A stretch of 64,000 nt of DNA from Negativicutes bacterium (GCA_963665275.2 CAXXIN010000006.1:1-64000), one strand, 5' to 3'; positions 13,634 through 33,214 are shown, counted from the first letter of the stretch. Notes: generated by a model from the letters alone, not told the origin. Translations and numbers: made by a program.

Positions 13634-13717
13634 GCCGTGATTGTGTGGTCGTTGTTTCGAAGCTAGTATTATATTCAGAACATTTCCAAAGTGAATTTAT
13701 TATGAGGAGGAATTGCA

Positions 13718-14542: not shown

Positions 14543-14549
14543 TGTCATC

Positions 14550-14586
14550 CGGAGTGAACGTTCTGTGCGCTTAAGCGTTCACTCCG
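14550..14586. repeat. Intergenic hairpin between hydrolase and MFS
   Basis: CGGAGTGAACG...CGTTCACTCCG, no strong U-tract. Confidence 0.5.
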
Positions 14587-14692
14587 CCTTCTGATCCTGC
14601 GTGATTAGAAGCAGTGCCAGGTCAAGTTGCCCCCTGAGTCCTCTGCATGAATCTAGATTATATGTCTACCAAATTAGAGGAGGAGTAATGTA

Positions 14693-15988: not shown

Positions 15989-16003
15989 GGGAGGCAATAG
16001 GGC

Positions 16004-16798: not shown

Positions 16799-16823
16799 CA
16801 ACGGGAAACAAGGCGAGGGAGGA

Positions 16824-17708: not shown

Positions 17709-17736
17709 CGGAAAGTTTAGAGAAAGGAGTGATTTT

Positions 17737-18756
17737 GTGGGACAGAAGAAAATCAGTTTTACCGATGTGACTCTGCGTGATGGGATGCACGCGGTTTCCC
17801 ACCAGCTGACAGTGGACGACATGGTCAGAGTGGCCACTGCTCTGGACGAAGCGCAGGTGGATATCATTGAGGTGACTCATGGCGACGGTTTGGGAGGCAG
17901 TTCCCTGCAATATGGGCTGGGCAGACACACAGACGAAGAATATCTGGCGGCTGTCGTGCCCAGGATGAAACATGCAGGAATATCGGTCCTGCTTATACCG
18001 GGAATCGGCACGATCGAGATGCTGGAAAAAGTTATGCCCCTGGGTATTAAAACTGTCCGCGTCGCAACTCACTGCACGGAAGCAGACGTAAGCGCCCAGC
18101 ATATCAGTTTTTGCCGGGATCACAAACTCGATACCGTAGGTTTTTTGATGATGGCTCATATGATTTCGCCGTCTGAATTGGTGGAACAGGCAAAAAAAAT
18201 GGAATCCTACGGCGCAAACTGCATCTATGTTACCGATTCTGCCGGGGCCCTGCTGCCTGACGGGGTGAGTGAGAGGGTCGCTGCAGTGCGGCAGGCTGTT
18301 AGTGTGGAAATGGGTTTCCATGCTCACAATAATCTCTCTCTGGCGGTGGCCAACAGTCTGGCTGCCATTGAAGCCGGAGCGACTCGCATCGACGCGTCTC
18401 TGGCAGGAATGGGCGCAGGTGCGGGCAATACTCCGCTGGAAGTGATGGCGGCAGTGCTGTCGAAGAAGGGCGTTGATACGGGAGTGGACCTCTATCACCT
18501 GATGGATGCAGCGGATGATATTGTCCGACCCTTAATGCGTCAGCCGATCCAAGTGGATCGTGTATCTTTGTCGATGGGCTATTCAGGCGTGTATTCCAGT
18601 TTTTTGCTACATGCCCGCAAGGCGGCAGTTCAATTTGGTGTTGATGCAAGAGATATTTTGCAGGAACTGGGCCGACGCAAAATGGTAGGCGGCCAGGAAG
18701 ACATGATCATCGATGTGGCGCTTGAATTGGCGAAACAAAAAAGGATCCTGGCATAA
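17737..18756 (+). CDS. mhpE: 4-hydroxy-2-oxovalerate aldolase
   Basis: [40 protein letters not shown]; GTG start after AAGGAG. Confidence 0.95.
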
Positions 18757-19790: not shown

Positions 19791-20911
19791 TTATTTTCGG
19801 GTTTCCAGTTTTTCTTTGATCCCATCCATCATAGTTTCAGTTTTATGGATGTAAGTGTCCATTGTGAATGTAGCCGAAGCGTGGCCCATCAGTAATTGGA
19901 TTTTTTTTGCCGATACATCCATCTCTTCCAACGTGCTGGCATACGTGTGCCGGAGATCGTGAAAATGGAGTTTGGCAGGGAGGCCGAGTTCGCGTTTTAT
20001 GTTTCCCCAGTCTCTTGATGCGTTGGCCGGATCTTGCGGCGATCCATCCAGTTGCGGAAAGACCAGATCAAATTCAGCGTGATATTTTAGTCCACATGAC
20101 AGGCGATGTTCGGCCTGCCTTTTTTTATGCGCTTTTAGTGCGAGGGCGGCGCCGTCGGTCAGCGGCAAAACACGCTTTGCATTATCGCTTTTCAGCGTTT
20201 TGGACAAGTGTACGCCCTTTGTCTTGGTTCGGCGAACCGTTTGTTCAACGGTGATGGTGGATTTTTTGTAGTCGATAGCCGACCAGGTGAGTCCCATGAG
20301 TTCACCCAGGCGCATGCCAGAATCCCAAGCAAGGGTTGTGAGCGGCTGCAGCGAAGAGTTGGCTACAGCTTTGAGCACGGTTTCGTATTGCTCTTTGCTG
20401 ATCACGATATACTGACGCTTTTCGCTGGTCGGCTTTTTGACTGCCTTACAGGGATTCCACAGGATCATCCGGTCGTTTTCTGCTTGCGTCAACGCCATAT
20501 TCAGAACGGTATAAATGTACTGGACTCGGCGACCGGATAAGCCGCCCTTCAATTTGGCTTTGATAATGCTGCGTATGTTTGACGGTTGCAGGCTTTGCAT
20601 TCGGATCGATTCCAACCGCGGTTTCAGATGCAGCCGGATCACATCGCGTAGGTATCATAGGTCCGTTCGCTCAGCGTTTCTTCATCGACATCCATTTGCC
20701 TTATCCGCAGCCATTCATCCAGCCATTCGCCAACCGTGGCAGTTGCGAAATTACCCAGCCCGGCCAACTTTTTTGCATTATCTTTGGCGGCAGTCAATTC
20801 GGCTTCCGTGTTGCCATAAACACGTTTGATTATCACTTTGCCTTCGGCATCATAACCCATTACTACATTGGCCTGATAGCGGCCATCTACACGTTTTTTG
20901 AGACGGGGCAT
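19791..20911 (-). pseudogene. Tyrosine recombinase/integrase with one frameshift near 20640
   Basis: N-terminal arm-binding region (KRVDGRYQA), GMRLGEL, FHDLRHTYAS, LMGHAS, TMDTY; split into ORFs 20639-20911 and 19791-20642; may be a sequencing indel. Confidence 0.85.
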
Positions 20912-20965
20912 TTGGATCACCTCCGGGTTAAATTTTTACCGGCAGTAATCATGGTTTGAATTTGT

Positions 20966-21547
20966 TCAGTGATGGCATGGCAAGTGCGGATCGTCGTTTG
21001 CATTATGTGATGGATTGTTCCCATCCATCTTGTATGAATCATGAGAAAGAGGATTGAAATGAATGCCTAAATGCTGCAAACGATTTTTCATGGTATCCGG
21101 ACTTACGGAGAACATTTCGACCAGGGCGACAAGGCTGTCCTCGTTGACAGACTTGCCGTGACCGCATGCTGAGCGTATCCAATCTGCCGGCATCAATAGG
21201 TTTTCTGCAAAATGATCAGCTTCATGTTTCAACAGTTGAAACTGTGGTGTTGTTAGGCGTGTATTGTCAAAGTGCAGATGATTCATGAATAAATGTCCCA
21301 TTTCGTGAGCATGGATAAAACTAGGGCTCCGCTTGGATAGTTTGCTGTTAATGAATACGTACCATATTGAATCTTGCTCCAAACAGAAACTCATTTCTGT
21401 CGGATGCTCAAACGGTGAAACAACGGCATATTGCTTCAATAATTCTTTGACTGGCACTGGCGGCTCCATGATTCGCTCGTGCAGCAGAATTCTTTGGGCG
21501 GTCGCATCTGCCAATGCCAGTCTTGCCTGGTCCGGCGAAGTTTTCAT
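20966..21547 (-). CDS. ImmA/IrrE family metallo-endopeptidase
   Basis: FIHAHEMGH HExxH, EADHFAENLLMP, FSVS..MKNRL. Confidence 0.88.
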   Translation of the reverse strand: MKTSPDQARLALADATAQRILLHERIMEPPVPVKELLKQYAVVSPFEHPTEMSFCLEQDSIWYVFINSKLSKRSPSFIHAHEMGHLFMNHLHFDNTRLTTPQFQLLKHEADHFAENLLMPADWIRSACGHGKSVNEDSLVALVEMFSVSPDTMKNRLQHLGIHFNPLSHDSYKMDGNNPSHNANDDPHLPCHH

Positions 21548-21572
21548 GCTACTCTCCTTCTTCCAAAGATGT

Positions 21573-21670
21573 GTCAACGGCGCACAGTATGAGGTCGACC
21601 GGGTAACGGACGTGAGGCGGGTAGCGGCGCTGAAAACCGGTGGGTTGGGGATGCGGCACGGTGAGGGTAC
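21573..21670 (+). pseudogene. Fragment of a small mobile-element hypothetical gene (YEVDRV..VR..A.LK.GG.G.R type), copy 1
   Basis: Translation VNGAQYEVDRVTDVRRVAALKTGGLGMR; shares an identical 19-mer with 34855-34873. Confidence 0.5.
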
Positions 21671-21830
21671 AGGGGAAAAAGGTTTAGTTGTTTGGGGATG
21701 AGGGTAGGTGGTTTTTGGAGGCGTAGAAAAAAGCATATTTTATGATAGGAAATTACAAGGGATTATATAAACAATCCAGAAGATAAATTAATAACGAAGG
21801 TACATCATTTTTTTGAAATGGAGACGTTTT

Positions 21831-22700
21831 ATGGATGAGCATGATTGGCGTTTGCTAAAAACATTATTTGAGAAAAAGAGCATTACTAAAACTGCGGCAG
21901 CATTGTTTGTGTCGCAACCAGCATTGTCCAGCCGGTTGCAACAGATTGAAACCCGCTTCGGTACGACAATTGTAGTAAGAAGCAAAAAAGGAGTGCAATT
22001 TACACCAGAAGGTGAATATCTGGTTAGAGGCGCCTGTGAAATTCTGAAACGGATACAAATTTTTGAAGAAGTTGTTCAAAATATGCGTAATCAAGCGACA
22101 GGAACTTTGCGTATTGGTGCATCAAATTTTTCTACCAAGTACTTGTTGCCGGAATTATTGAGGCGATTTAAGGAGTTGTACCCGGGGATAGAGTTTAAGG
22201 TTACTACGGGCTGGAGTAAAGATATCGCCAATCTTGTATATAATAATGATGTCCATATTGGTTTTGTTCGGGGTGAATACAGTTGGCCGGGTGAGAAACT
22301 GTTATTGTTTGAAGAAAAAATGTATGTTTCTTATAACAAAACAATTTCGATGCTTGAATTACCGCATATACCAAGAATTGACTACCGCAATGATTATTCC
22401 GTTCAATTGTTGCTGGATAAATGGTGGAATGAGAAATTTTCAGTACCTCCATTCATTGGGATGGAGGTCGATAAGGTTGATACATGCAAAGAAATGGTCA
22501 TGAAAGGGTTAGGATATGCCTTTTTGCCGGAGATGATTATCAAACATGATGACGACCTGCACAATATTGAGATGGGGCACCGGAATGGAAAACCAATATT
22601 ACGCAGCACCTGGATGTTTTACCATAGAGAAACTATGGAATTGAATCTGGTCAAGGCGTTTTATGATTTTGTTCGAAATGTGGATTTTAAACGTCTATAA
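21831..22700 (+). CDS. LysR family transcriptional regulator
   Basis: SITKTAAALFVSQPALS HTH, GTLRIGAS, GLGYAFLP. Confidence 0.93.
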   Translation: MDEHDWRLLKTLFEKKSITKTAAALFVSQPALSSRLQQIETRFGTTIVVRSKKGVQFTPEGEYLVRGACEILKRIQIFEEVVQNMRNQATGTLRIGASNFSTKYLLPELLRRFKELYPGIEFKVTTGWSKDIANLVYNNDVHIGFVRGEYSWPGEKLLLFEEKMYVSYNKTISMLELPHIPRIDYRNDYSVQLLLDKWWNEKFSVPPFIGMEVDKVDTCKEMVMKGLGYAFLPEMIIKHDDDLHNIEMGHRNGKPILRSTWMFYHRETMELNLVKAFYDFVRNVDFKRL

Positions 22701-22752
22701 ATTTAAAATTAGTTATGCGGGCCTCTTGATGAGGCCCTTCTTTATTGCTGAT

Positions 22753-22777
22753 TATCCATAATTAAAAACTATGGATA
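22753..22777. promoter_or_regulatory. Putative LysR binding site
   Basis: Perfect inverted repeat TATCCATA-N9-TATGGATA (contains T-N11-A) upstream of the DASS operon. Confidence 0.65.
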
Positions 22778-22890
22778 GTTAAAATTTTTTTGTATTAACT
22801 AAATGGTTGGAATTGTATTTATAATTTGATTGTAGGGAAATTTGACCAGCCGGCAGGGAAATACAGCAAAAAATCTTGGGAGGTATGATT

Positions 22891-24294
22891 ATGAACGGTA
22901 AATTGACACGTGCATTGGTCGTTGTTTTGGTTGGAGCAATCATTTGGTTCTTACCGGTTCCAACTGGAGTCAAGCCTGAAGCATGGCACTTGTTGGCAAT
23001 TTTCGTTGCAACGATTTTAGGTTTTATCCTTCAACCGATTCCCATTGGCGCCATAGCATTTATGAGTTTAACATTTACCGCTTTAACCGGAGTATTGAAA
23101 ATAGGGCAAGTGCTTAGTGGCTTTTCTCAAACGGTAGTGTGGCTCATTGTTGCGGCATTCCTGTTCTCTCGTGGTTTTGTAAAAATCGGCGTTGGGCGGC
23201 GGATTGCCTTTCAATTGATCAAGTACTTTGGCGATAGCAGTCTGAAATTATCGTATGTGCTTATTATCAGCGACCTTTTTATTGCGCCGGCGACACCTTC
23301 CAATACGGCGCGCGCTGGTGGGATACTATTCCCTGTTGTTCGTAGTTTGGCAAGTTCTTTTGGATCTGAACCAGGTGTGACTTCAAAAAAAATTGGTTCG
23401 TTTCTGATACAGGCCGTCTATCACGGGGACACGATTACGTCCGCAATGTTTATGACAGCAATGGCTGGAAATCCATTGATGGTGGCATTGGCTGCAAAAG
23501 CTGCCGTAGTGGACGTGAGTTGGGGAACATGGTTTGTTGCGGCAAGCGTACCTGCCATTATATCCCTTGCGATCATTCCTTACTTCATTTATAAATATGA
23601 ATCGCCGGAAATCAAGAAAACGCCGGAAGCAAGGCATATTGCCGAACAAGAGTTGTCAAAAATGGGCCCGATGCGACGGGAAGAAAAATATTTATTAGCG
23701 ATTTTTGCGGGGGCATTGATTCTTTGGGCAACTTCTCAATTTACAAAATTAGATGCAACATTAGTTGCCATGATGGCGGTTTCAGGCATGATCGCTACAG
23801 GAGTTCTTGATTGGAGTGACGTGACGGAAGAAAAAGGCGGCTGGGACACGATGATATGGATGGGCAGTCTAATTTGTCTGGCAGGCTTCCTCAACACTCT
23901 CGGATTAATTCCGTGGTTTGCCAAAGTCATGAGTGCATCTGTTACAGGTATGCCTTGGCACTATGCATTTATCGTCATTGTACTGGTCTATACTTATGCA
24001 CATTATGCCTTTGCCAGTTTAACGGCCCATATTGCCGCTATGTTTTCGGCTTTCTTGGCGGTAGCGGTGGCGGTGGGAACTCCGCCTTATTTGGCGGCGT
24101 TGTCTTTGTTTTTTGCATCCTCCATATCGCAAGGAATAACGCATTATGCAGCAGGTCCGGCACCGATATTTTTTGGAGCGGGCTATGTCAGCCAAGCAAC
24201 GTGGTGGAAGTTAGGCTTTATGGTTTCAGCAATTAACCTCGTAATCTGGATTGGTCTTGGGTCTATTTGGTGGAAAGTATTGGGCTTATGGTAA
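22891..24294 (+). CDS. DASS family di/tricarboxylate transporter (CitT/TtdT-like)
   Basis: WLIVAAF, PATPSNTARAGG, MFMTAMAGNPL, HYAFASLTAH, ITHYAAGPAP. Confidence 0.92.
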   Translation: MNGKLTRALVVVLVGAIIWFLPVPTGVKPEAWHLLAIFVATILGFILQPIPIGAIAFMSLTFTALTGVLKIGQVLSGFSQTVVWLIVAAFLFSRGFVKIGVGRRIAFQLIKYFGDSSLKLSYVLIISDLFIAPATPSNTARAGGILFPVVRSLASSFGSEPGVTSKKIGSFLIQAVYHGDTITSAMFMTAMAGNPLMVALAAKAAVVDVSWGTWFVAASVPAIISLAIIPYFIYKYESPEIKKTPEARHIAEQELSKMGPMRREEKYLLAIFAGALILWATSQFTKLDATLVAMMAVSGMIATGVLDWSDVTEEKGGWDTMIWMGSLICLAGFLNTLGLIPWFAKVMSASVTGMPWHYAFIVIVLVYTYAHYAFASLTAHIAAMFSAFLAVAVAVGTPPYLAALSLFFASSISQGITHYAAGPAPIFFGAGYVSQATWWKLGFMVSAINLVIWIGLGSIWWKVLGLW

Positions 24295-24356
24295 AAATGA
24301 CACTCAATCTTTATAGTGGGGGAGAGAAATTGGTGAATTTGAAGGGGGGATTCGAT

Positions 24357-25250
24357 ATGAAAAAGATAATTTCCGGGTCATCCGTCGGTATTCAGGTACC
24401 CTATTCGGCTGGAAGAATGGGAGCGTCCATGACGATTCCCAGTAACGCTTGCGACAGCCATCACCATATTTATGACCCTGTGCGTTTCCCATATTTGCCG
24501 ACTGACGTTCGAAATCAGCCACCGGCAACAGTGGATGCCTATCGATTGCTGCAAAAAAGGCTGGGCCTTGAGCGCAACGTGATTGTCACTCCATCCGCCT
24601 ATGGCACGGATAATGGCTGTACGTTGGAAGCATTGAAACTAATGGGGCTGAAATCACGCGGAGTGGTTGTTGTCGATAATACTGTCTCAAATGATGAATT
24701 GGAGAGGATGCATGCAGCCGGGGTGCGTGGCGTCCGATTCAATATTGCAACAGGTGGCTCGAATGACCGGAATCTGATCCTGTCGCTTTCGCACCGAATC
24801 AACGAGTTGGGTTGGCATGTGCAATTTTGGATGAGTGCAACCCAAACTGTAGAGATGGAAGATTTTTTATTTTCAGTGCCTTCTCCCATTGTGTTTGATC
24901 ATCGGGGACACATTCCACAACCGGAAGGAGTGGAGCACCCGGCGTTTGGAGTTATTTGCAGACTGCTGGACACAGGCAAGGCATGGGTGAAATTGTCCGG
25001 TCTTTATCAGGATAGCCAAATTGGAGATCCAACCTACGCGGATACTGTGCAGGTCGGCAAGGCTTATGTTGCATATGCGCCGGAGCGTATGGTGTGGGGG
25101 ACGGATTGGCCCCATCCGACAATTTTTTCCGAGCGAAAGCCCTGGCCGGACGATGGCTCTATGCTGGAGTTTTTGAGCGTGCAAGCTCCTGATGAAGTGA
25201 TTCGTAACAAGATATTAGTGGATAACCCTGCAGTGTTGTATGGGTTTTAA
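24357..25250 (+). CDS. Amidohydrolase_2 family lactonase/isomerase (LigI / 2-pyrone-4,6-dicarboxylate hydrolase-like)
   Basis: DSHHHIY, PSAYGTDN, GVRGVRFN, FDHRGH, WVKLSG, WGTDWPH. Confidence 0.85.
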   Translation: MKKIISGSSVGIQVPYSAGRMGASMTIPSNACDSHHHIYDPVRFPYLPTDVRNQPPATVDAYRLLQKRLGLERNVIVTPSAYGTDNGCTLEALKLMGLKSRGVVVVDNTVSNDELERMHAAGVRGVRFNIATGGSNDRNLILSLSHRINELGWHVQFWMSATQTVEMEDFLFSVPSPIVFDHRGHIPQPEGVEHPAFGVICRLLDTGKAWVKLSGLYQDSQIGDPTYADTVQVGKAYVAYAPERMVWGTDWPHPTIFSERKPWPDDGSMLEFLSVQAPDEVIRNKILVDNPAVLYGF

Positions 25251-25287
25251 GAATTAAGCAAAGTATTAATTATAGGAGGCGGTTTTT

Positions 25288-26430
25288 ATGTCACAATTTT
25301 CGACACCTTGTAGTGTATATCGTGGAGGAACCAGTCGAGGGTTGTTTTTTCAAAAAAAAGACTTGCCGGAAGATATTCAGAAGCGAAACATAATTTTTCT
25401 TGAAGGAATTGATTGTTATAACCCTTCACAAGTAAATGGCTTGGGGGGGACAACTTCTTCAACTAGCAAGGTTTGCGTCATTTCACCCTCATCTCATGAC
25501 GGCGCCGATGCTGACTGGACTTTTTACCAACTCGGAGTTGCAGAAGTCGTAGTGGACGACAAGGGTACTTGCGGCAATTTGATGGCGGCGGTGGGAGCTT
25601 TTGTTGTTGATGAAGGATTGGCAACTGTTGATCCTACAGCTGATATGGCCGAAGTGTTTGTGTATAACACGAATATCAAAAAAATGTTGCAAATGGAAAT
25701 ACCGGTCGTCAACGGCAAAGCTAAAGTTGATGGAGACTATTTGATGCCGGGTGTTGTAAAACCAGGGGCGATGTTCCGTGTTTCAATCATGAATCCTGGG
25801 GGAGAATTGACGGGAAAGCAATTATTATTGGGAACTACAGCCGAAGTCAAAATGGATAAAGACACCTATTCATTGACGTTCTCGGACCTCATAAATCCCT
25901 TTGTATTTTTAGCGGGGCAAGATGTGGGATTGTCCGGGAACGAATCGCATCAAGAAGTTGCCGCAAATCAAAAGGTTTTAGATGAACTAAACTTGATTCG
26001 GGACAAAGTGGCTGTTATCGCCGGTATGGCAAAAACAGAACAAGATGCAAGACAAAATAAACCGAACGTTCCTAAAATCGCTGTGGTTAGCCCCGCACAG
26101 GATTATGTAACTACCAACGGCGAGTTGATTCATAAAGATGACGTAGATATTCTTGTCAAAGTCGTTTCAATGGGAAAGCTGCATCGTACAAGTCCGGCCA
26201 GCTGTCTGTACAATTTAGCGGCCACGACCCTGCTGCAAGGAACAATTCCCAATCAAATCGCCGGACTCCGCGCTGGAGTAAAAGATCAAATGATTCGAAT
26301 CGGGCATCCCGAAGGAATTGTTCAAGTCCGAGTCACGTTAGGCGAAGATGGCCAAAAGGTTGCAAAGGTTGGCATGGAGCGGACGGCAAGAAGGATTATG
26401 AAGGGTGAATTATACACCCCTGTAATGTAA
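25288..26430 (+). CDS. PrpF family isomerase (LigU/GalD/aconitate isomerase-like)
   Basis: RGGTSRG, TSKVCVI, CGNL, HPEG, RTARRIMKG. Confidence 0.9.
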   Translation: MSQFSTPCSVYRGGTSRGLFFQKKDLPEDIQKRNIIFLEGIDCYNPSQVNGLGGTTSSTSKVCVISPSSHDGADADWTFYQLGVAEVVVDDKGTCGNLMAAVGAFVVDEGLATVDPTADMAEVFVYNTNIKKMLQMEIPVVNGKAKVDGDYLMPGVVKPGAMFRVSIMNPGGELTGKQLLLGTTAEVKMDKDTYSLTFSDLINPFVFLAGQDVGLSGNESHQEVAANQKVLDELNLIRDKVAVIAGMAKTEQDARQNKPNVPKIAVVSPAQDYVTTNGELIHKDDVDILVKVVSMGKLHRTSPASCLYNLAATTLLQGTIPNQIAGLRAGVKDQMIRIGHPEGIVQVRVTLGEDGQKVAKVGMERTARRIMKGELYTPVM

Positions 26431-26443
26431 GGAAGGGCGATTT

Positions 26444-27061
26444 ATGGAAGAAATAATTGCAAAGATCCAAAAAGTGCCTAGTACGTGTGTGGCAGATGCA
26501 ACAGACGGAATGAATAATATGGATACTGCCATAAAGCCACTCAAAGCGGGATATAAAGTATGCGGCAGAGCGGTTACGGTCAAAATGCCTGCTGGCGATA
26601 ATTCAGCCGTACTTCGTGCTATTCGTGCGGCAAAGCAGGGGGATATACTGGTTATTGATTCTAAAGGATACACTTCACGAGCGGTTGCAGGCGACTTCGT
26701 GGCAGGCCTGGCCCAAATCTTGGGATTGGGAGGAATGGTAGTGGACGGCAGTATTCGTGATGCTATAGGGATTGGCAACATTGGATTTCCAGTCTTTTGC
26801 AGAAGTGTTACGTCTTCTGCCAGTACCAAAAATGATGGAGGGGAAATCAATGTACCCATAGTCTGTGGCGGTGTTGCTGTCAACCCCGGGGATATTGTTG
26901 TCGGTGATGATGATGGGGTAGTTATTGTTCCGAAAGACCGCGAACAGGAAATCTTGCTGGCGGCTGAAAAAAAATTACTGAAGGATCAAGAACGTGCCGA
27001 AGCAGTGCTGCAAAGTCCAGACACTGCACGAGATTACCTGGATAAATTATTGGGAAATTAA
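26444..27061 (+). CDS. RraA-family protein / HMG-CHA aldolase-like
   Basis: VADA, GRAVTV, GDN, VVDGSIRD, PGDIVVGDDDGVV. Confidence 0.88.
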   Translation: MEEIIAKIQKVPSTCVADATDGMNNMDTAIKPLKAGYKVCGRAVTVKMPAGDNSAVLRAIRAAKQGDILVIDSKGYTSRAVAGDFVAGLAQILGLGGMVVDGSIRDAIGIGNIGFPVFCRSVTSSASTKNDGGEINVPIVCGGVAVNPGDIVVGDDDGVVIVPKDREQEILLAAEKKLLKDQERAEAVLQSPDTARDYLDKLLGN

Positions 27062-27099
27062 CAAAATGATGAATTTTATTTGAGATAGGAGCGAAGAAC

Positions 27100-29031
27100 A
27101 TGGGAAAAAATTTGATGGAAAAAATTATCGCTTCTCATATAGTGTCGGGCGAAATGATACCCGGCAATGAGATTGAAATTCGCGTCGATCAGACCCTGAC
27201 CCAGGATGTGTTGGGAACGATGGCATATCTGCAATATGAAGCTCTGGGAGGTGGACAGGTTAAAACAAATTCCGTGTCCTACATTGACCACAATACTCTA
27301 CAAGATGGGTTTGAGAATGCGGATGATCACCGCTATCTGCAAACCGTAGCTGATAAACATGGAATAAAATGCTCAAAACCAGGGAATGGCATTTGCCATC
27401 AGGTTCATTTGGAAAGATTCAGCAGGCCGGGTGAAGTGCTGGTTGGCGGCGATAGTCATACTCCCACCTGTGGAGCCGTGGGAATGGTGGCGGTTGGCGT
27501 GGGTGGCTTGGAAATCGCCGGAGCTATGGCAAGTGGAAAGTGTTTTTTAACCTATCCCAAAACTGTCAAGATCAATTTGGAAGGCGAACTGAAACCGTGG
27601 TCTTCTGCTAAAGATATAGCACTTGAAGCTTTGCGTATTTTTACGACAAAAGGGAATGTCGGGACTTCTATCGAGTATGGTGGCAGTTGCATCAAGAGCC
27701 TTACTGTACCTGAACGGGCGACAATAACTAATATGGGCGCGGAAATGGGGATTACCACGTCGATATTTCCAAGTGATGAAGTAACCCAAGCTTTTTTCAA
27801 GGCACAGTCACGTTTGGAAGACTGGAAAGAAATAAAACCGGATGCTGATGCAACGTATGAAAAAATTATCACCATCGATGTCAGCAAGATAGTACCGAAT
27901 GTTGCCTGCCCACATTCCCCGGACAATGTTAAAACAGTCAAAGAAATGGAAGGCTTGCCGGTAAATCAAGTTCTGGTGGGAAGCTGCACTAATTCTTCTT
28001 ATCGAGACCTGTTGCTTGTGGCATCCATGCTCAAAGGGAAACGTGTACATCCGAATGTAAGCTTCGGGATTGCGCCGGGAAGCCGTCAAGTCCAAGCGAT
28101 GATCGTCAAAAATGGGTTAATGGATATTTTCCTATCAGCGGGAGCCCGTATTTTTGAAAGCGTCTGCGGTTTTTGCTGTGGAGCAGGCCAGTCACCCCAA
28201 AGCAATGGAGTATCCTTGCGTACAAACAATCGAAATTATGAAGGGCGTAGTGGGACCAAAGATGGGCAAGTTTATTTAGTTAGCCCCGAAACTGCGGTAG
28301 CGGCTGCGTTGACTGGAAAGATAACGGATCCGCGCGATCTCGGGTTGGAGTATCCGACGATTTCGTTGCCGGAAGTGTATCCTATAGATGACAACTTGAT
28401 TTTTACGCCATCTTGCGACCCTGCCGTCGAAGTTTTCCGGGGCCCAAATATTGGCGCTCCGCCCCAAAATACCAAAATTCCTGAGACTATTAAAGGAAAA
28501 GTTGCCATTAAGTTGGGGGATAAAATTACGACGGATCATATTACTCCCGCTGGGTCTCTGCTAAAATATCGATCCAATGTTCCCAAATACTCTGAATATG
28601 TATTTCGAGATGTGAAACCTGAATTCGCTAAAGAGTGCATGAAAAATAAAGAAATGAACTTTTCTTCAGTGATTGTGGCTGGACAAAGTTATGGACAAGG
28701 ATCGTCGCGAGAGCATGCAGCGCTTTGCCCAATGTTTCTAGGGGTGAAAATTTTGCTCGCGAAAAGTGTGGAACGTATTCATGCGGCCAATCTGATCAAC
28801 TTTGGCATTCTTCAATTGGTCTTTGCCCAAGAAAGTGATTATGACCGATTACAGGATGGTGATGAACTTTTGATTGAAAACGTGTATGCGGGTGTCGAAC
28901 AGGGAAACGTGATTGTACGCAATGTTACGCAGGACTATGAATTTCCCACGAATTGCTCTTTGACACAAAGGCAGAGAGAAATTGTCCTTAACGGCGGATT
29001 GCTAAATTACATGGTCAGAGATAGCCAATAG
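27100..29031 (+). CDS. Aconitate hydratase family enzyme (single chain, about 640 aa)
   Basis: YIDHN, GICHQVH, GDSHT, GSCTNSS, CGFCCG, NRNYEGR, TTDHI, GQGSSREHA. Confidence 0.92.
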   Translation: MGKNLMEKIIASHIVSGEMIPGNEIEIRVDQTLTQDVLGTMAYLQYEALGGGQVKTNSVSYIDHNTLQDGFENADDHRYLQTVADKHGIKCSKPGNGICHQVHLERFSRPGEVLVGGDSHTPTCGAVGMVAVGVGGLEIAGAMASGKCFLTYPKTVKINLEGELKPWSSAKDIALEALRIFTTKGNVGTSIEYGGSCIKSLTVPERATITNMGAEMGITTSIFPSDEVTQAFFKAQSRLEDWKEIKPDADATYEKIITIDVSKIVPNVACPHSPDNVKTVKEMEGLPVNQVLVGSCTNSSYRDLLLVASMLKGKRVHPNVSFGIAPGSRQVQAMIVKNGLMDIFLSAGARIFESVCGFCCGAGQSPQSNGVSLRTNNRNYEGRSGTKDGQVYLVSPETAVAAALTGKITDPRDLGLEYPTISLPEVYPIDDNLIFTPSCDPAVEVFRGPNIGAPPQNTKIPETIKGKVAIKLGDKITTDHITPAGSLLKYRSNVPKYSEYVFRDVKPEFAKECMKNKEMNFSSVIVAGQSYGQGSSREHAALCPMFLGVKILLAKSVERIHAANLINFGILQLVFAQESDYDRLQDGDELLIENVYAGVEQGNVIVRNVTQDYEFPTNCSLTQRQREIVLNGGLLNYMVRDSQ

Positions 29032-29295: not shown

Positions 29296-29362
29296 GACTG
29301 TCAACGGCAATGATAAAATGCAAAAAGGCAAATTTAGACTGGCGTTGACAGTCTTTTTTTTT
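29296..29362 (+). terminator. Terminator-like hairpin with large loop
   Basis: GACTGTCAACG...CGTTGACAGTC followed by a T-run. Confidence 0.5.
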
Positions 29363-29433: not shown

Positions 29434-30168
29434 TTAGCTGGAGAAACAAAGCGCAGGCAACTCGGTTGAGGGCTTGCCTGCGGGGCATATTTCGCGGCAT
29501 TTCCAACACTGCAGTACAGGGAATCCTCTGGGCAGCTTCGTCCAGCAATGACTTCTGCAAGAGGATTGATGGATGGAATGGTTATTCTTTAGAGCTTTTC
29601 CAGGACATGCGTCGATGCATAGTTGGCAACTCGGTGGGCATAGTTCGTTCGTAAGTACGGCGTCGGGTTCGATTTCAAGGTCAGTAACGATGGAAACAAG
29701 GTTCACACGATTTCCGAATTGTGGCGTAATCAGCAGAGTGTTTTTCCCCAGCACACCTAGCCCAGCGGCTACGGCTGCATGCTTGTGCGACAGATCGCCG
29801 GCCGCATACTGAGTTTCTTCATCCCAATGGAAGTAGGGCGTCATGGCGGGTACCGGAATCGCGCTGGCTGCAAAAGTTTCTTCGAGGAACAGAGATAGAT
29901 GATACGCATCATGATCCAGTCGAACAACATTACCGTCGTGAACCGTAGTGTAGCTGGTCCATTTTTTGTTTTTCACCGGGCCGGTCAGGATTCTTCGGGC
30001 CAATACGATAATGGATTTCGCCTCGACCATGATATCTTGCGGTTTGTGATTTTCCGGCGCCGCCGCAAATCTTTCGACGGGAGCTACGCCGATCAATTCA
30101 ATACCCAAGCTCTGGGCCTTGTCTAAAAGATTTTTTTTAACATCGGCTGGTTGAAAAATATAGATCAA
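29434..30168 (-). CDS. QueG/reductive-dehalogenase-like Fe-S protein (epoxyqueuosine reductase family); start uncertain
   Basis: SHKHAAVAAGLG.LGKNTLLITPQFG.RV.L, CPPSCQLCIDACP, CWKCREICP. Confidence 0.8.
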   Translation of the reverse strand: MIYIFQPADVKKNLLDKAQSLGIELIGVAPVERFAAAPENHKPQDIMVEAKSIIVLARRILTGPVKNKKWTSYTTVHDGNVVRLDHDAYHLSLFLEETFAASAIPVPAMTPYFHWDEETQYAAGDLSHKHAAVAAGLGVLGKNTLLITPQFGNRVNLVSIVTDLEIEPDAVLTNELCPPSCQLCIDACPGKALKNNHSIHQSSCRSHCWTKLPRGFPVLQCWKCREICPAGKPSTELPALCFSS

Positions 30169-30408
30169 CTCCTTTACTAAGACAATTATAGATTCAGGAG
30201 CCTGTGTGTGTCTTATCGATTTTCGCCATGTAATTCGGTGGTGGCAAAGCAAAGGAGATGGAGCAAGCTATGAAAACAAAATTCGGCAAGAAGCACTTTC
30301 ATCAGAAGTGTTTGCGTCGGGTTATCTTCTTCATTTCGTAAGTTTCTTCTACCAGGCAACCTCCCCAGTAGGCACTCAGAGGAGAAATTCATTTAGCTTG
30401 CAGGAGTT

Positions 30409-31326
30409 TCAAGGTTTTGGCTGATGAACAATGAGTCCTTCAAATTCCGATTTGATCACCTGTTCCAGGTAGTGGTCGAATATTTTCAGGCTAGCAATCG
30501 TGCTAGATTTCGGCTGCTTATGGGTGAGTTTGTAAACAATCCTGTCAGGTGGCGGATCGGACAGGAAAAACATCACATAGTTTCCCAGCTTTTGCGATGC
30601 TATCGCCATTGACAATGGCATGATGGCCCATTGTTCGGGCTCCTGCAGACCCAGAACCAAAAGTCGTGCGGTATCGAATTGGGCCATGCACGGCATCGAT
30701 GGATCCCACCTTTTATCATGCCAAAGTTGAAAACTTGTTGACCATCGGACATAAAGCTCATGACTGCGATCCAATTCGCCGGGATGGAGCAAACCAGATT
30801 GGGAAAACGGTGTGGGCGCGAGTTTCAAAACCACCATCGGTTCGGAATAGCATGGAGATACGATTACATTGGGATGATTTCGTTCTAATTGAGAAAAAGC
30901 AACATTGACATGTCGCCTGTCCACTTCTTCGTAAGCTTCAACCGAATGAGATGTAATTACATTGAGCTGTATTTTCGGTTTGTGGTGGCTAAGTGCCGTA
31001 TATAGCGCAGGGAAAATTGAACTGACAATGCTATCAAGCATAAGGATGGACAAAGATAGGTGGGGCCCGGAAGACAGTGCGACCTGGGTTTCTCGAAAAA
31101 GCAAATCCCAGCGCTCGGCCAGTGCAACGAAATTTTCTCCGGCCGGGGTGAGACGAATCGTCTTTAAGCCTTTTCCTCTCTCGAAAAGAACAGTTGTCAC
31201 TTCCTGCTCTAATACACGGATCCTTTTGCTGACAGTTGTTTGAGATAAATGGAGCTGTTCGGCGGCCTTGCTGATGTTCTGGGTCCGAACTACCGCCAAA
31301 AAAGCTTCAATTCCGCGATTGTACAT
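30409..31326 (-). CDS. LysR family transcriptional regulator
   Basis: NISKAAEQLHLSQTTVSKRIRVLE, LFER, LTPAGE; divergent from the RraA operon. Confidence 0.9.
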   Translation of the reverse strand: MYNRGIEAFLAVVRTQNISKAAEQLHLSQTTVSKRIRVLEQEVTTVLFERGKGLKTIRLTPAGENFVALAERWDLLFRETQVALSSGPHLSLSILMLDSIVSSIFPALYTALSHHKPKIQLNVITSHSVEAYEEVDRRHVNVAFSQLERNHPNVIVSPCYSEPMVVLKLAPTPFSQSGLLHPGELDRSHELYVRWSTSFQLWHDKRWDPSMPCMAQFDTARLLVLGLQEPEQWAIMPLSMAIASQKLGNYVMFFLSDPPPDRIVYKLTHKQPKSSTIASLKIFDHYLEQVIKSEFEGLIVHQPKP

Positions 31327-31519
31327 GCTGCACCTCCTCTTTGGAAATAGCAATAAAGGTAATATATATTCGCACAAATAGTCATTTTACTTGCATTTTA
31401 AATTGGCTTAATATTAGCACAAAAGATGCAATTGCGGCAATAAAACTTTCAATTCGCTTAATCTATCCGGGATGCATACCGGATGATGAACTAATAAAAA
31501 GATAGGGAGGGTTCTATTA

Positions 31520-32197
31520 ATGTCAAATGTTAACTTCCGAATTTACTCAAAAATTGAAAGACCTTCAAAAGAACTCGTGAATGCTTTTGCAGGAATCCCT
31601 GTGGCGAACATTGGAGACTGTATGAACCGAATGTCCTGTATCGATGCCGGACTCCGTCCACTAAACAGCGCACCTTTGCTCGGAACCGCATTTACCGTCA
31701 AGACGCGCCCCGGTGACAATCTTCTTCTGCACAAGGCGATCGACATGGCAGCGCCTGGCGATGTCATTGTTGTGGATGCCGGGGGGGAAACGAGCAATTC
31801 GATCACCGGCGAATTGATGATTCTTTGGATGCAGGGTCGCGGTGTTGCCGGACTAATCGTTGACGGGGCAATTCGAGATCTTGGTTCAATCCAAAAGATG
31901 AAATTTCCGGTCTATGCCGCGGGTGTTCAGCCCAAAGGACCCTATAAAGATGGCCCGGGTGAAATCAATGTTCCGGTTTGCTGTGGCGGCGTGGTTATAA
32001 AACCCGGCGACATCCTGGTGGGTGATGAAGACAGTGTCATTGTGATCGATCCTAAAGATGCCCCTGAAGTTCTGGAAAAAGCCAAAGCAACGGTAGCCAA
32101 AGAAGCAGGAATGATGGAGGCTATCAAAAACAAGACCTGGGATCGCAGTTGGGTTGACAAAGCGCTCAAAGAAAAAGGTTGCGAATTTATTGACTGA
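31520..32197 (+). CDS. RraA-family protein / HMG aldolase-like (second)
   Basis: VANIGD, GTAFTVKTRPGDNL, IVDGAIRD, GPGEINVP. Confidence 0.9.
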   Translation: MSNVNFRIYSKIERPSKELVNAFAGIPVANIGDCMNRMSCIDAGLRPLNSAPLLGTAFTVKTRPGDNLLLHKAIDMAAPGDVIVVDAGGETSNSITGELMILWMQGRGVAGLIVDGAIRDLGSIQKMKFPVYAAGVQPKGPYKDGPGEINVPVCCGGVVIKPGDILVGDEDSVIVIDPKDAPEVLEKAKATVAKEAGMMEAIKNKTWDRSWVDKALKEKGCEFID

Positions 32198-32281
32198 AGC
32201 ATGACCTGGTTGAATCGGAAGTGTACAACATATAAGCGTTAAAAAAGTAAAGTGGCGCAAGCCCTGAGGGAGAAAACATAA

Positions 32282-33154: not shown

Positions 33155-33214
33155 AGAAACAAAACCCGATTGGAAACAAAAAATACGAGAAGCATGTGTT
33201 GGGAGAGATTGAAA

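What the first reader, a model, noticed from the sequence alone, without database searches (positions are those of the whole stretch)
21831..29031. LigI/LigU/LigK-like catabolic operon with an aconitase in place of the usual hydratase
Seen: a LysR gene with a perfect operator palindrome, followed by a DASS transporter, an amidohydrolase_2 lactonase, a PrpF isomerase, an RraA-fold aldolase and an aconitase, all co-oriented. Established: the lower protocatechuate 4,5-cleavage route uses LigI (amidohydrolase, PDC lactonase), LigU (PrpF family), LigJ (hydratase) and LigK (RraA-fold HMG/CHA aldolase). Three of those four families are here, there is no LigJ/GalB or dioxygenase, and an Fe-S aconitase fills the gap. 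Inference: this is an oxygen-independent pathway for an imported lactone or tricarboxylate (PDC, 4-oxalomesaconate or an analogue) in which the aconitase does the hydration. An alternative is trans-aconitate use through PrpF plus aconitase, but that leaves the lactonase and aldolase unexplained.
Basis: partly seen in the sequence, partly recalled or inferred. Interest (0 to 1): 0.75.

Follow-up and report, generated by a model that had tools for sequence, protein, structure and literature searches.

The report
Anaerobic tricarboxylate and lactone catabolic operon
This gene cluster most likely lets an anaerobic bacterium import and break down plant-type tricarboxylic acids (the aconitate/isocitrate family, including a lactone form), using an ordinary aconitase and not a new lignin-pathway hydratase.

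Summary
Six co-oriented genes are present: LysR, a DASS transporter, a LigI-like Amidohydro_2 lactonase, PrpF, an RraA-like enzyme and a 643-aa aconitase. There is an 8+8 bp palindrome at 22753-22777, and terminators follow lysR and the aconitase.

The Lig-pathway reading, with the aconitase replacing LigJ, is not supported:
- The aconitase matches housekeeping aconitases of relatives at all 20 active-site positions checked.
- Its nearest homologues sit in LysR/aconitase/PrpF-like/DASS clusters, twice inside citDEF citrate-lyase operons.
- The PrpF scores higher against Mii and PrpF than against LigU.
- The RraA gene accompanies this lactonase type in only 3 of 25 copies.

The lactonase belongs to a subgroup with its own signature residues. 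An aconitase-family hydratase or an ICDH-like dehydrogenase lies within 8 kb in 11 of 14 fully flanked loci, against 6 of 85 for other paralogues. Several orthologues carry Tat signals.

Best reading (confidence 0.5): a self-contained tricarboxylate operon. The route is aconitate/isocitrate family to citrate, then citrate lyase encoded elsewhere, then oxaloacetate and pyruvate. A new lactonase for an isocitrate-type gamma-lactone extends it.

The boldest alternative still open is hydroxycitrate lactone to 2-oxoglutarate. No substrate has been tested.

The parts
21831..22700 (+). LysR-type regulator, CcpC-like
   Evidence: Pfam HTH_1 and LysR_substrate. The best NCBIfam hit is CcpC, at 248 bits against a cut-off of 400. 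It is 52% identical to the LysR beside the canonical citDEF operon on contig C3 and 70% identical to the LysR of the L098 cluster. The start at ATG 21831, behind GGAG, was read.
22719..22737 (+). terminator-like hairpin after lysR
   Evidence: Seven pairs, six of them G-C, followed by TTCTTTATT.
22753..22777 (.). candidate LysR operator, TATCCATA-N9-TATGGATA
   Evidence: Read; the 8-nt arms are perfectly complementary. The site lies about 115 nt upstream of the transporter start. It was not found in 148 other loci. Binding is inferred, not shown.
22891..24294 (+). DASS-family di/tricarboxylate transporter
   Evidence: Na_sulph_symp 533 bits, TIGR00785 436 bits. It is 38% identical to E. coli YbhI, 37% to CitT and 35% to TtdT, which does not discriminate between them.
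24357..25250 (+). COG3618-type (LigI-like) lactonase of a distinct subgroup, with no signal peptide here
   Evidence: Amidohydro_2 155 bits. Best solved structures are LigI 4d8l (146 bits) and 4mup (142 bits). The LigI catalytic H31, H33, H180 and D248 are conserved. Subgroup signature residues are, the neighbour statistics, and the start codon and Tat comparison.
25288..26430 (+). PrpF-family cofactor-independent isomerase
   Evidence: PrpF 289 bits. Solved structures: 3g7k 239, 2pvz 195, LigU 6p3j 119 bits. It is 68% identical to the PrpF of the C15 module and 79% to that of L098, but only 33-36% to the PrpF-like genes of citDEF-linked clusters.
26444..27061 (+). RraA-fold, metal-dependent 2-oxoacid aldolase or beta-keto-acid decarboxylase
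   Evidence: RraA-like 145 bits. It falls below every NCBIfam cut-off: PRK06201 177/231, PRK09262 142/179, ligK_PcmE 128/304. Arg123-Asp124 of the HMG/CHA aldolase 3noj are conserved. It accompanies this lactonase type only in the window, L093 and L089.
27100..29031 (+). bona fide Fe-S aconitase (TIGR01342/PRK07229 type)
   Evidence: Above both NCBIfam cut-offs. All the mitochondrial-aconitase active-site residues I recalled are conserved except N170T. The T is shared by the ICDH-adjacent aconitases of relatives.
29336..29354 (+). terminator-like hairpin at the end of the operon
   Evidence: stem of 6 pairs followed by a run of nine T.

Best explanation
This is a substrate-inducible operon for the catabolism of C6 tricarboxylates of the aconitate/isocitrate family by an anaerobe.

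**Proposed steps (all inferred).**
1. The DASS carrier imports the divalent or trivalent anion.
2. The LigI-like enzyme hydrolyses a gamma-lactone whose open form is an isocitrate-type 2-hydroxy-3-carboxy acid. The most economical candidate is isocitrate lactone. Here this happens in the cytoplasm; in several relatives it happens in the periplasm.
3. The PrpF-family isomerase corrects double-bond geometry, for example trans- to cis-aconitate.
4. The aconitase performs its ordinary reaction and converts isocitrate or cis-aconitate to citrate.
5. Citrate is split by the citrate lyase encoded elsewhere in the genome (citDEF-citXG-citC on contig C3).
6. The RraA-fold enzyme acts as the soluble oxaloacetate decarboxylase and gives pyruvate.
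7. The CcpC-like LysR senses a tricarboxylate and acts at the palindrome upstream of the transporter gene.

**Why the operon carries its own aconitase.** No citrate synthase of family PF00285 was found in this genome. No isocitrate dehydrogenase was found beyond a LeuB-like gene. No other full-length aconitase was found beyond a paralogous catabolic copy.

**Shown.** Family memberships, catalytic residues, gene order, neighbour statistics and the genome inventory.

**Inferred.** Every substrate, the direction of flux, and the role of each enzyme.
For: **1. The aconitase is ordinary.**
- It scores above the curated cut-offs of two aconitase models.
- At 19 of the 20 positions I recalled as the mitochondrial aconitase active site, including the three Cys ligands and Arg447, 452, 580 and 644, it has the same residue as 1aco. 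The exception is N170T.
- At all 20 positions it is identical to the aconitases that sit beside ICDH-like genes in relatives (L170-L172).

**2. Context of its nearest homologues in 41 related genomes.**
- Copies at 60-72% identity lie in LysR/aconitase/PrpF-like clusters, most with a DASS-type transporter (L164-L169).
- In L165 and L166 the gene order is citD-citE-citF-aconitase-(EIIC-like)-PrpF-like-DASS.

**3. Known precedent.** LysR plus a PrpF-superfamily aconitate isomerase plus an importer is the experimentally defined trans-aconitate assimilation system TarR/TarA/TarB of Bacillus velezensis (PMC11495376; abstract, section 27 and passages).

**4. Genome inventory.**
- PF00285 gives 0 matches.
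- PF00180 gives 1 match, beside LeuCD-like genes.
- CitF gives 3 loci.
- Contig C3 carries citD, citE, citF, citXG, citC, a CitMHS transporter and a LysR 52% identical to the window's.
- In the genus, this aconitase type was found only in the three genomes that also carry the lactonase (3 of 12).

**5. The lactonase subgroup.**
- Copies linked to an aconitase, to a YbhJ-type hydratase or to an Iso_dh gene share the residues Y21, D25, R27-N-Q-P-P, F-W-M and D-H-R. Paralogues at 44-51% identity lack them.
- Of 25 signature-positive copies, 16 have an aconitase-family or Iso_dh gene within 8 kb (11 of 14 with at least 3 kb of flank on both sides).
- Of 134 signature-negative copies, 6 do (6 of 85 with such flanks).

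**6. The Iso_dh partners.**
- The L101 partner scores best against NAD-isocitrate dehydrogenases in the PDB (6ltf, 229 bits).
- The partners carry polar S-x-N or N-x-S at the site where housekeeping ICDH-like proteins have S-I-N and LeuB has E-K.
- Isocitrate-type acids are what the aconitases and the ICDH-like enzymes have in common.

**7. Tat signals.** Orthologues in L089, L099, L150, L151 and L001, and proteins P0004, P0005, P0022 and P0032, carry twin-arginine signals. This fits ring opening outside the cell followed by uptake of the free acid through DASS, TRAP or 2HCT carriers.

**8. RraA.**
- The catalytic Arg-Asp pair of an enzyme annotated as CHA aldolase/oxaloacetate decarboxylase is conserved.
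- An RraA-family gene follows a CitE-CitF pair and a DctM-like gene on contig C14.
Against: - No substrate was tested.
- In the paper library I found no report of enzymatic hydrolysis of isocitrate lactone. 'Isocitrate lactonase' had 0 occurrences, and 25 papers mention the lactone, mostly as a metabolite.
- The window-type PrpF (a clade with L098 and the C15 copy) is only 33-36% identical to the PrpF-like genes of the citDEF-linked clusters. Their presumed aconitate-isomerase role cannot simply be transferred, and no sequence of TarA was available for comparison.
- A dedicated, divergent Iso_dh (N-x-S instead of S-x-N in L099, L101 and L150) and a dedicated isomerase would be unnecessary for ordinary D-threo-isocitrate. 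This hints at a stereoisomer or a substituted analogue.
- The RraA residues fit an aldolase as well as a decarboxylase. The operon holds no citrate lyase of its own.
- Three fully flanked signature-positive loci (L154, L156, L161) show no hydratase or dehydrogenase partner.
- Loci from related genomes are not independent. L098/L152, L100-L102 and L110/L111 are near-duplicates.
Confidence: 0.5

Rival explanations
1. **Hydroxycitrate route.** The lactonase opens hydroxycitrate lactone (garcinia or hibiscus acid). The aconitase dehydrates hydroxycitrate, which is the 2-hydroxy analogue of 2-methylcitrate. PrpF shifts the double bond as it does for methylaconitate, giving the enol of oxalosuccinate. 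The RraA-fold enzyme decarboxylates this 3-substituted oxaloacetate to 2-oxoglutarate.
For: - Every enzyme has a chemically precedented role: AcnD/PrpF logic (PMC5690661, listing and abstract only) and the oxaloacetate decarboxylase activity of the 3noj family (molecule name).
- A hydroxycitrate-to-2-oxoglutarate enzyme activity was reported in Micrococcus and Hibiscus, with no gene known. ICDH acts weakly on Garcinia hydroxycitrate (review PMC4945632, section 7 passages).
- PrpR_N-type sensor domains sit in two sister clusters. These are an MCP in L093 and a sigma-54 activator in L089. From recall, this domain senses 2-methylcitrate in PrpR.
- Loss of RraA or PrpF in variant clusters is tolerable because oxalosuccinate decarboxylates spontaneously (recalled).
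- Divergent N-x-S Iso_dh partners fit a substituted isocitrate.
Against: - The aconitase shows no active-site change relative to housekeeping aconitases.
- Its closest homologues are tied to citrate lyase.
- Hydroxycitrate is a niche plant product, whereas this lactonase type occurs in many metagenome contigs.
- Clusters made only of a transporter, Iso_dh and the lactonase (L100-L102) would end at a hydroxy-oxoglutarate, which is not a central metabolite.
- No paper linking these families to hydroxycitrate was found.
Confidence: 0.15
2. **First reader's model.** An oxygen-independent version of the lower protocatechuate 4,5-cleavage route. The lactonase hydrolyses 2-pyrone-4,6-dicarboxylate. 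PrpF acts like LigU. The aconitase hydrates the product to 4-carboxy-4-hydroxy-2-oxoadipate in place of LigJ. The RraA enzyme acts like LigK and cleaves it to pyruvate and oxaloacetate.
For: - Three of the four families match.
- The LigI catalytic residues and the Arg-Asp pair of the aldolase are conserved.
- The oxo-adipate product is a citrate analogue. A fungal aconitase is reported to dehydrate the one-carbon-longer homocitrate (PMC3556520, abstract in the listing). Acceptance of a longer arm is therefore conceivable.
- All four enzymes would have a role.
Against: - PrpF scores 119 bits against LigU, versus 239 against Mii and 195 against PrpF.
- The lactonase differs from LigI at R130 (G), Y49 (R) and Y156 (W), and scores equally well against 4mup.
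- Lactonase orthologues at 66-71% identity with the same signature are coupled to ICDH-like dehydrogenases, which cannot use these intermediates.
- The aldolase is missing from the closest non-genus clusters (L098/L152, L104), which would then dead-end.
- The aconitase active site is unmodified.
- No source of PDC in the window: no ring-cleavage or LigC-like gene among the neighbours scanned.
Confidence: 0.08
3. **Another lactone-forming acid, or a mosaic operon.** The substrate could be an isocitrate diastereomer (allo-isocitrate), homocitrate or homoisocitrate, or a branched sugar-derived acid. Alternatively the operon combines two independent functions: aconitase and PrpF for aconitate, and lactonase plus RraA aldolase for a 4-hydroxy-2-oxo-acid lactone.
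For: - In paralogues lacking the signature, lactonase and RraA-family genes are a recurrent pair: 44 of 134 copies, or 32 of 85 with full flanks. Another 18 of 80 proteobacterial loci show it.
- Isomerases of three different families accompany the lactonase: PrpF, YbhH-like and Asp_Glu_race. This suggests a stereochemical problem.
- The G552 locus mixes the lactonase with threonate-type acid-sugar genes.
- The homologous E. coli ybhD-ybhHIJ set is still uncharacterised.
Against: - The window lactonase carries the signature of the aconitase/ICDH-linked subgroup, not that of the RraA-linked paralogues.
- The aconitase keeps Arg580 and the rest of the citrate-binding set.
- The five genes are packed tightly, with 13-62 nt gaps, and have a single terminator.
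Confidence: 0.22

Closest known systems
TarR/TarA/TarB trans-aconitate assimilation system of Bacillus velezensis FZB42 (PMC11495376; abstract, section 27 and passages read)
   Same: A LysR-type activator next to an operon encoding a PrpF-superfamily isomerase and an importer. The operon serves the use of a plant tricarboxylate and has a palindromic operator.
   Different: - The importer here is DASS, not TarB.
- This operon adds its own aconitase, a LigI-like lactonase and an RraA-fold enzyme.
- lysR is co-oriented and separately terminated, not divergent.
- Orthology of the PrpF to TarA was not tested, because no TarA sequence was at hand.
Lower protocatechuate 4,5-cleavage / gallate pathway (LigI, LigU/GalD, LigJ/GalB, LigK/GalC)
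   Same: The same three protein families (COG3618 amidohydrolase_2, PrpF, RraA-fold aldolase). Catalytic residues of the lactonase and the aldolase are conserved.
   Different: - No LigJ or GalB, and no dioxygenase or LigC nearby.
- The PrpF scores higher against Mii and PrpF than against LigU.
- The lactonase has its own signature, and elsewhere it partners with ICDH-like enzymes.
- The aldolase is not conserved with it.
Escherichia coli ybhD-ybhH-ybhI-ybhJ (function unknown; PMC9068703 passages)
   Same: A LysR, a PrpF-family isomerase, a DASS 'putative tricarboxylate transporter' and an aconitase-family hydratase. More distant members of the same lactonase subgroup sit beside true YbhJ orthologues (65-69% identity to E. 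coli YbhJ) in L107, L110 and L111.
   Different: The window proteins are only 25-38% identical to YbhJ, YbhH and YbhI. E. coli has no Amidohydro_2 or RraA gene in the cluster.
AcnD/PrpF branch of the 2-methylcitrate cycle, and the Mii/DmdAB/Dml steps of nicotinate fermentation (the latter recalled; a copy is present on contig C13)
   Same: The same logic: a PrpF-type allylic isomerase paired with an aconitase-family (de)hydratase, followed by a C-C lyase.
   Different: No synthase (PrpC) and no mutase. A lactonase starts the route. The lyase or decarboxylase is RraA-fold and not of the ICL/PEP-mutase family.

Membership tests
Lig/Gal lower pathway (PDC to pyruvate + oxaloacetate) | LigI-type PDC hydrolase: catalytic His31, His33, His180 and Asp248, plus LigI substrate-side residues | tested here: inconclusive
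   The catalytic four and Arg124 are conserved. R130 is G, Y49 is R and Y156 is W. It scores 146 bits against LigI and 142 against 4mup. The role of the three differing residues is recalled; the LigI paper could not be fetched.
Lig/Gal lower pathway (PDC to pyruvate + oxaloacetate) | LigU/GalD-type oxalomesaconate isomerase or tautomerase | tested here: not met
   LigU 6p3j scores 119 bits, against 239 for 3-methylitaconate isomerase and 195 for PrpF. NCBIfam OMA_tautomer scores 214 bits, below its cut-off of 440.
Lig/Gal lower pathway (PDC to pyruvate + oxaloacetate) | LigJ/GalB hydratase, and an upstream ring-cleavage enzyme or LigC | tested here: not met
   None among the window genes scanned. 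The genome has 6 PF04909 and 2 PF02900 matches. None lies beside the cluster apart from the lactonase itself.
Lig/Gal lower pathway (PDC to pyruvate + oxaloacetate) | LigK/GalC aldolase orthologue that travels with the lactonase | tested here: not met
   The Arg-Asp pair is conserved. However, ligK_PcmE scores 128 against a cut-off of 304.5 and PRK09262 scores 142 against 179. An RraA-family gene accompanies 3 of 25 signature-positive lactonase copies.
Aconitate hydratase, TIGR01342/PRK07229 type | Score above the curated cut-offs, three Cys ligands and the citrate/isocitrate-binding residues | tested here: met
   865 against 612 and 805 against 719 bits. Residue table against 1aco. Identical to ICDH-adjacent homologues at 20 of 20 positions. 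The list of positions is recalled.
COG3618 metal-independent lactonases (LigI, Gli, 4-sulfomuconolactone hydrolase) | Amidohydro_2 fold with H-x-H, a third His and the catalytic Asp | tested here: met
   Pfam 155 bits, SlmHylase 180 bits against a cut-off of 500, alignment. It is a member of the superfamily but not of any named equivalog.
Trans-aconitate assimilation (TarRAB type) | LysR regulator + PrpF-superfamily aconitate isomerase + importer in one locus | tested here: inconclusive
   The family composition is met.
E. coli ybhDHIJ-type cluster | Orthology to YbhH, YbhI and YbhJ | tested here: not met
   29%, 38% and 25% identity. The composition is the same but the proteins are not orthologues. 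True YbhJ orthologues accompany more distant members of the lactonase subgroup.

The most novel reading that the evidence does not exclude
The operon encodes the genes, so far unidentified, for bacterial catabolism of hydroxycitrate. A new COG3618 lactonase opens garcinia- or hibiscus-type hydroxycitrate lactone. The aconitase and PrpF act on hydroxycitrate as AcnD and PrpF act on 2-methylcitrate, giving enol-oxalosuccinate. The RraA-fold enzyme is an oxalosuccinate decarboxylase yielding 2-oxoglutarate. The ICDH-like partners in other bacteria would be the alternative second step.
Probability: 0.15. Interest if true: 0.75.

Novelty: new variant of a known kind. Interest (0 to 1): 0.5.

Why it matters
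- **A new enzyme activity.** If the main reading holds, it defines a new activity in the LigI/COG3618 lactonase superfamily: a tricarboxylate (isocitrate-type) lactone hydrolase, exported by Tat in many bacteria.
- **How anaerobes use plant tricarboxylates.** It would show how strict anaerobes with no citric-acid cycle of their own use these acids, by carrying a private aconitase and feeding citrate lyase.
- **A lead for an orphan E. coli cluster.** Relatives of the E. coli ybhD-ybhHIJ genes sit beside the same lactonase subgroup, which gives a concrete hypothesis to test.
- **Hydroxycitrate.** If the hydroxycitrate variant is right, it would assign genes to an activity described biochemically decades ago. 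It would also bear on how gut bacteria handle a widely sold supplement and hibiscus drinks.
- **A caution for annotation.** Three shared families were not enough to infer a Lig-type aromatic pathway.

Tried and rejected
- **Literature.** Searches for a described pathway combining these families found nothing relevant: hydroxycitrate/aconitase/lactonase, PrpF/RraA/amidohydrolase/aconitase, hydroxycitrate lactone names, cog3618/LigI and isocitrate lactone or lactonase. The library lacks most subscription journals, and supplements were not seen.
- **LigI structure paper.** It could not be fetched by PubMed id or by a guessed PMC id. The roles of the LigI side residues therefore rest on recall.
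- **Genome-contig scan.** Only L001, L012 and L070 were useful.
- **Phylum-wide sample.** One of 401 genomes had a close match, and that was the window's own genome. This says only that the gene is rare in that sample.
- **Palindrome.** The exact operator sequence is not conserved elsewhere (0 of 148 loci).
- **Transporter.** Comparison with YbhI, CitT and TtdT gave 35-38% identity to each and does not discriminate.
- **Earlier findings of the scan.** Nothing was found.
- **N170T.** I first took this change in the aconitase as a possible specificity change. I rejected that because the housekeeping homologues share it.
- **Ascorbate-derived carboxy-lactones.** I considered them because of the beta-propeller protein in L089 and the threonate-type genes in G552. 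I set them aside because the aconitase site is canonical.

Full report
**1. What is there**

The window holds six co-oriented genes on the + strand between 21813 and 29031. Pfam and NCBIfam place them as follows.
- A LysR regulator. Its best NCBIfam hit is the citrate sensor CcpC, at 248 bits against a cut-off of 400.
- A DASS anion transporter.
- An Amidohydro_2 protein.
- A PrpF-family protein.
- An RraA-fold protein.
- A 643-aa aconitase. It passes the curated cut-offs of PRK07229 (865 against 612) and TIGR01342 (805 against 719).

A terminator-like hairpin follows lysR at 22719-22737. The palindrome TATCCATA-N9-TATGGATA lies at 22753-22777, upstream of the transporter gene. A second terminator-like site at 29336-29354 follows the aconitase. 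The five enzyme and transporter genes therefore look like one transcription unit under a neighbouring LysR.

Likely starts:
- ATG 21831 for lysR.
- ATG 22891 for the transporter.
- ATG 24357 for the amidohydrolase, behind AGGAGG. This gives 297 aa and includes the conserved QVPYSxGR segment.

**2. The individual enzymes against characterised relatives**

*Amidohydrolase.*
- It scores 146 bits against LigI (4d8l) and 142 bits against the chain 4mup.
- It keeps LigI's His31, His33, His180, Asp248 and Arg124.
- It has Gly, Arg and Trp where LigI has Arg130, Tyr49 and Tyr156. The roles of these residues are recalled, not checked.

*PrpF.* It scores 239 bits against 3-methylitaconate isomerase, 195 against PrpF and only 119 against LigU.

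*RraA-fold protein.*
- It keeps the Arg123-Asp124 pair of the HMG/CHA aldolase/oxaloacetate decarboxylase 3noj.
- It stays below every NCBIfam cut-off, including both LigK models.

*Aconitase.*
- Aligned to mitochondrial aconitase, it keeps Gln72, Asp100, His101, His147, Asp165, Ser166, His167, Asn258, Glu262, Cys358, Cys421, Cys424, Asn446, Arg447, Arg452, Arg580, Ser642, Ser643 and Arg644.
- The only change is Asn170 to Thr. The list of positions is recalled.

**3. The aconitase is an ordinary aconitase used catabolically**

I aligned 19 aconitases from the window, its genome and related genomes.
- The window protein is identical at all 20 positions, including the Thr, to three homologues at 55-56% identity that look housekeeping (L170-L172). 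Two of them sit beside ICDH-like genes and the third beside an HMGL-like gene.
- The closest homologues (60-72%) lie in LysR/aconitase/PrpF-like clusters, most with a DASS-type transporter (L164-L169). In L165 and L166 the order is citD-citE-citF-aconitase-(EIIC-like)-PrpF-like-DASS.
- In a midpoint-rooted FastTree, the lactonase-linked aconitases (window, L093, L098, L104) form a branch next to these. Support values were not printed.
- The aconitase of the sister species G010 (L089, 46%) is different. It has Q72H, N170A and N446P.

In the window's genus, this aconitase type was found in 3 of 12 genomes at E <= 1e-100. These are the same three that carry the lactonase.

The window's genome is 92.6% complete.
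- It gave no PF00285 citrate synthase.
- It gave one PF00180 gene, beside LeuCD-like genes.
- It gave three CitF loci.
- Contig C3 has citD, citE, citF, citXG, citC, a CitMHS transporter and a LysR 52% identical to the window's.

An Re-type citrate synthase was not searched for and cannot be excluded.

**4. The lactonase defines the cluster**

The lactonase has thousands of relatives. In one search, 7691 of the 8000 candidates scored had E <= 0.001. Among the 120 listed, source names include Sporomusa, Veillonella, Negativicutes and Bacillota.

I collected loci from genome contigs, metagenome contigs and related genomes. Partners of the orthologues at 63% identity or more are as follows.
- An aconitase of the same type in the window, L093, L098, L152 (cut by the contig end), L089 and L104.
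- An Iso_dh (PF00180) gene in L099-L102 and in L150/L151, with TRAP, DASS or 2HCT transporters.

Members at 51-57% identity sit with true orthologues of E. coli YbhJ (65-69%) and YbhH-like isomerases. In L110, L111 and L160 an Iso_dh and a 2HCT transporter are present as well.

All these copies share Tyr21, Asp25, Arg27-Asn-Gln-Pro-Pro, Phe-Trp-Met and Asp-His-Arg, numbering from 24432. Paralogues at 44-51% lack these residues.

I grouped 159 lactonase-like copies by the R[NK]QPP motif alone.

| Group | Copies | Aconitase-family or Iso_dh gene within 8 kb | Same, with at least 3 kb of flank on both sides | RraA-family gene nearby |
|---|---|---|---|---|
| Motif-positive | 25 | 16 | 11 of 14 | 3 |
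| Motif-negative | 134 | 6 | 6 of 85 | 44 (32 of 85) |

Caveats on these counts:
- Related genomes are not independent.
- L098/L152, L100-L102 and L110/L111 are near-duplicates.
- L152's truncated aconitase was counted as absent.

**5. What the partners say about the substrate**

The L101 Iso_dh partner scores best against NAD-dependent isocitrate dehydrogenases (6ltf, 229 bits).

At the segment where housekeeping ICDH-like proteins read S-I-N, and where the LeuB-type proteins read E-K, the partners read as follows.
- S-x-N in L110, L160 and L151.
- N-x-S in L099, L101 and L150.

That this segment recognises the gamma-carboxylate of isocitrate is recalled. An acid that serves an unmodified aconitase and ICDH-like enzymes alike is isocitrate or a close analogue.

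Several orthologues carry twin-arginine signals: L089, L099, L150, L151 and L001, and proteins P0004, P0005, P0022 and P0032. The window's copy, L098 and L104 do not. Ring opening can therefore take place outside the cytoplasm, with the free acid imported afterwards. A lactone of a tricarboxylate is itself a divalent anion, which suits a DASS carrier where the enzyme is cytoplasmic.

**6. The variable members**

*PrpF.* It is present in the window, L093, L098 and L152. It is absent from L104. In L089 a seven-bladed beta-propeller 'Lactonase' (PF10282) takes its place.

*RraA.* It is present only in the three genomes of the window's genus.

*Sensor domains.*
- In L093 a chemoreceptor with a PrpR_N sensor domain is inserted between PrpF and RraA.
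- L089 is driven by a sigma-54 activator with the same domain.

*PrpF clades.* The window-type PrpF forms a clade with L098 (79%) and a copy on contig C15 (68%). It is only 33-36% identical to the PrpF-like genes of the citDEF-linked clusters, which are 50-53% identical to the genome's Mii-like gene.

*The C15 module.* It reads LysR / PrpB-like lyase - DASS - aconitase (62%) - PrpF. This is the same design with a different C-C lyase or decarboxylase.

**7. Interpretation**

The best-supported reading is a self-contained tricarboxylate operon.
- It follows the known scheme 'LysR + importer + PrpF-type aconitate isomerase', shown experimentally for TarR/TarA/TarB of Bacillus velezensis (PMC11495376; abstract, section 27 and passages read).
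- It carries its own aconitase because the host lacks a cycle aconitase.
- It feeds citrate lyase.
- It is extended by a lactonase that delivers an isocitrate-type acid.
- The RraA-fold enzyme is most simply the soluble oxaloacetate decarboxylase. An RraA-family gene also follows a CitE-CitF pair and a DctM-like gene on contig C14.

All substrates are inferred.

The Lig-type model is disfavoured for these reasons.
- The PrpF is not LigU-like.
- The aldolase is not conserved with the lactonase.
- The lactonase's other partners could not use oxalomesaconate or CHA.
- The aconitase site is unmodified.

One argument I first made against the Lig model is weak. A fungal aconitase is reported to dehydrate homocitrate (PMC3556520, abstract only), so a longer arm is not excluded on residues alone.

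**8. The open alternative**

Hydroxycitrate is the 2-hydroxy analogue of 2-methylcitrate, and its lactone is a 3-hydroxy-isocitrate lactone.
- AcnD/PrpF-type chemistry on it would give enol-oxalosuccinate.
- An RraA-type decarboxylase would then give 2-oxoglutarate.
- A review describes such a hydroxycitrate-to-2-oxoglutarate activity in Micrococcus and Hibiscus with no gene known, and weak ICDH activity on Garcinia hydroxycitrate (PMC4945632, section 7 passages).

In favour:
- The divergent N-x-S dehydrogenases.
- The dedicated isomerases.
- The PrpR_N sensors.

Against:
- The unmodified aconitase.
- The citrate-lyase link.
- The narrow natural occurrence of hydroxycitrate.

I give this alternative 0.15.

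**9. Comparison and novelty**

The cluster resembles the Tar system and, in composition, the uncharacterised E. coli ybhD-ybhHIJ genes. It is not a member of the Lig/Gal lower pathway.

What appears new is the lactonase subgroup and its systematic coupling to aconitase-family and ICDH-like enzymes. I found no paper on enzymatic hydrolysis of isocitrate or hydroxycitrate lactones, nor on this gene combination. That is within a library that lacks most subscription journals and with supplements closed.

I rate it a new variant of a known kind, with interest 0.5.

Noticed in passing
window 14693-18756: An MFS transporter, an MhpD-like 2-oxopent-4-enoate hydratase (FAA_hydrolase), an acylating acetaldehyde dehydrogenase and a DmpG-type 4-hydroxy-2-oxovalerate aldolase lie in a row. 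This is the lower meta-cleavage module, found here in what looks like a strict anaerobe.
   Followed up: no
window 19791-21736 and about 20000-50000: A tyrosine recombinase (19791-20642) and an IrrE/M78-like gene (20966-21736) lie immediately upstream of the cluster. G+C drops from 0.50-0.55 to 0.38-0.50 between about 20 and 50 kb. The cluster is present in only 3 of 12 genomes of the genus. Together these suggest a genomic island.
   Followed up: partly
window 30409-34549: A divergent LysR, a second RraA-fold gene (PRK06201 299 bits, above the cut-off of 231), an NAD_binding_2/DUF1932 oxidoreductase and an MFS transporter. In relatives this pair recurs with a 50% paralogue of the lactonase, and in most of those loci with an Amidohydro_1/3 gene too (L155, L157-L159, L162). 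In this genome the paralogue and the Amidohydro_1/3 gene sit on contig C18 with CitE and CitF. This looks like a second, uncharacterised lactone pathway.
   Followed up: partly
L089 (G010:C33) 7125-16339; L149 (E. coli K-12): In the sister species a PF10282 beta-propeller 'lactonase' replaces PrpF, and the aconitase is divergent (Q72H, N170A, N446P). In E. coli K-12 the beta-propeller 6-phosphogluconolactonase gene pgl lies directly beside ybhD-ybhHIJ. This may be coincidence.
   Followed up: no
L095 (G000:C13:296000-314000): A complete-looking nicotinate-fermentation set: NAD_binding_2 dehydrogenase, SDH_alpha-like dehydratase, LeuCD-type hydratase, B12-binding mutase, PrpF/Mii, MutL-type protein, ICL-family lyase and a molybdo-flavoprotein subunit. 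Assignment to that pathway is from recall.
   Followed up: no
L097 (G000:C12) 8322-11400 and L096 (G000:C5): DASS paralogues (57-60%) sit beside LeuCD-type hydratases under sigma-54 activators. On C12 there is also a LarA-family nickel-pincer 2-hydroxyacid (malate-type) racemase homologue.
   Followed up: no
L150/L151 (G552:C1:2358000-2391999): A 25-kb acid-catabolism island. It has two Tat-exported lactonase orthologues, three Iso_dh genes, DASS and 2HCT carriers and a PrpR_N-type chemoreceptor. It also has two Asp/Glu-racemase-family genes and a threonate-type set (DUF1537 kinase, class II aldolase, xylose-isomerase-like TIM).
   Followed up: partly
window 29434-30252 (- strand): A 272-aa ORF with weak similarity to the Fe-S proteins QueG (61 bits, cut-off 200) and reductive dehalogenase. 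It has no Pfam hit and lies just downstream of the operon.
   Followed up: no
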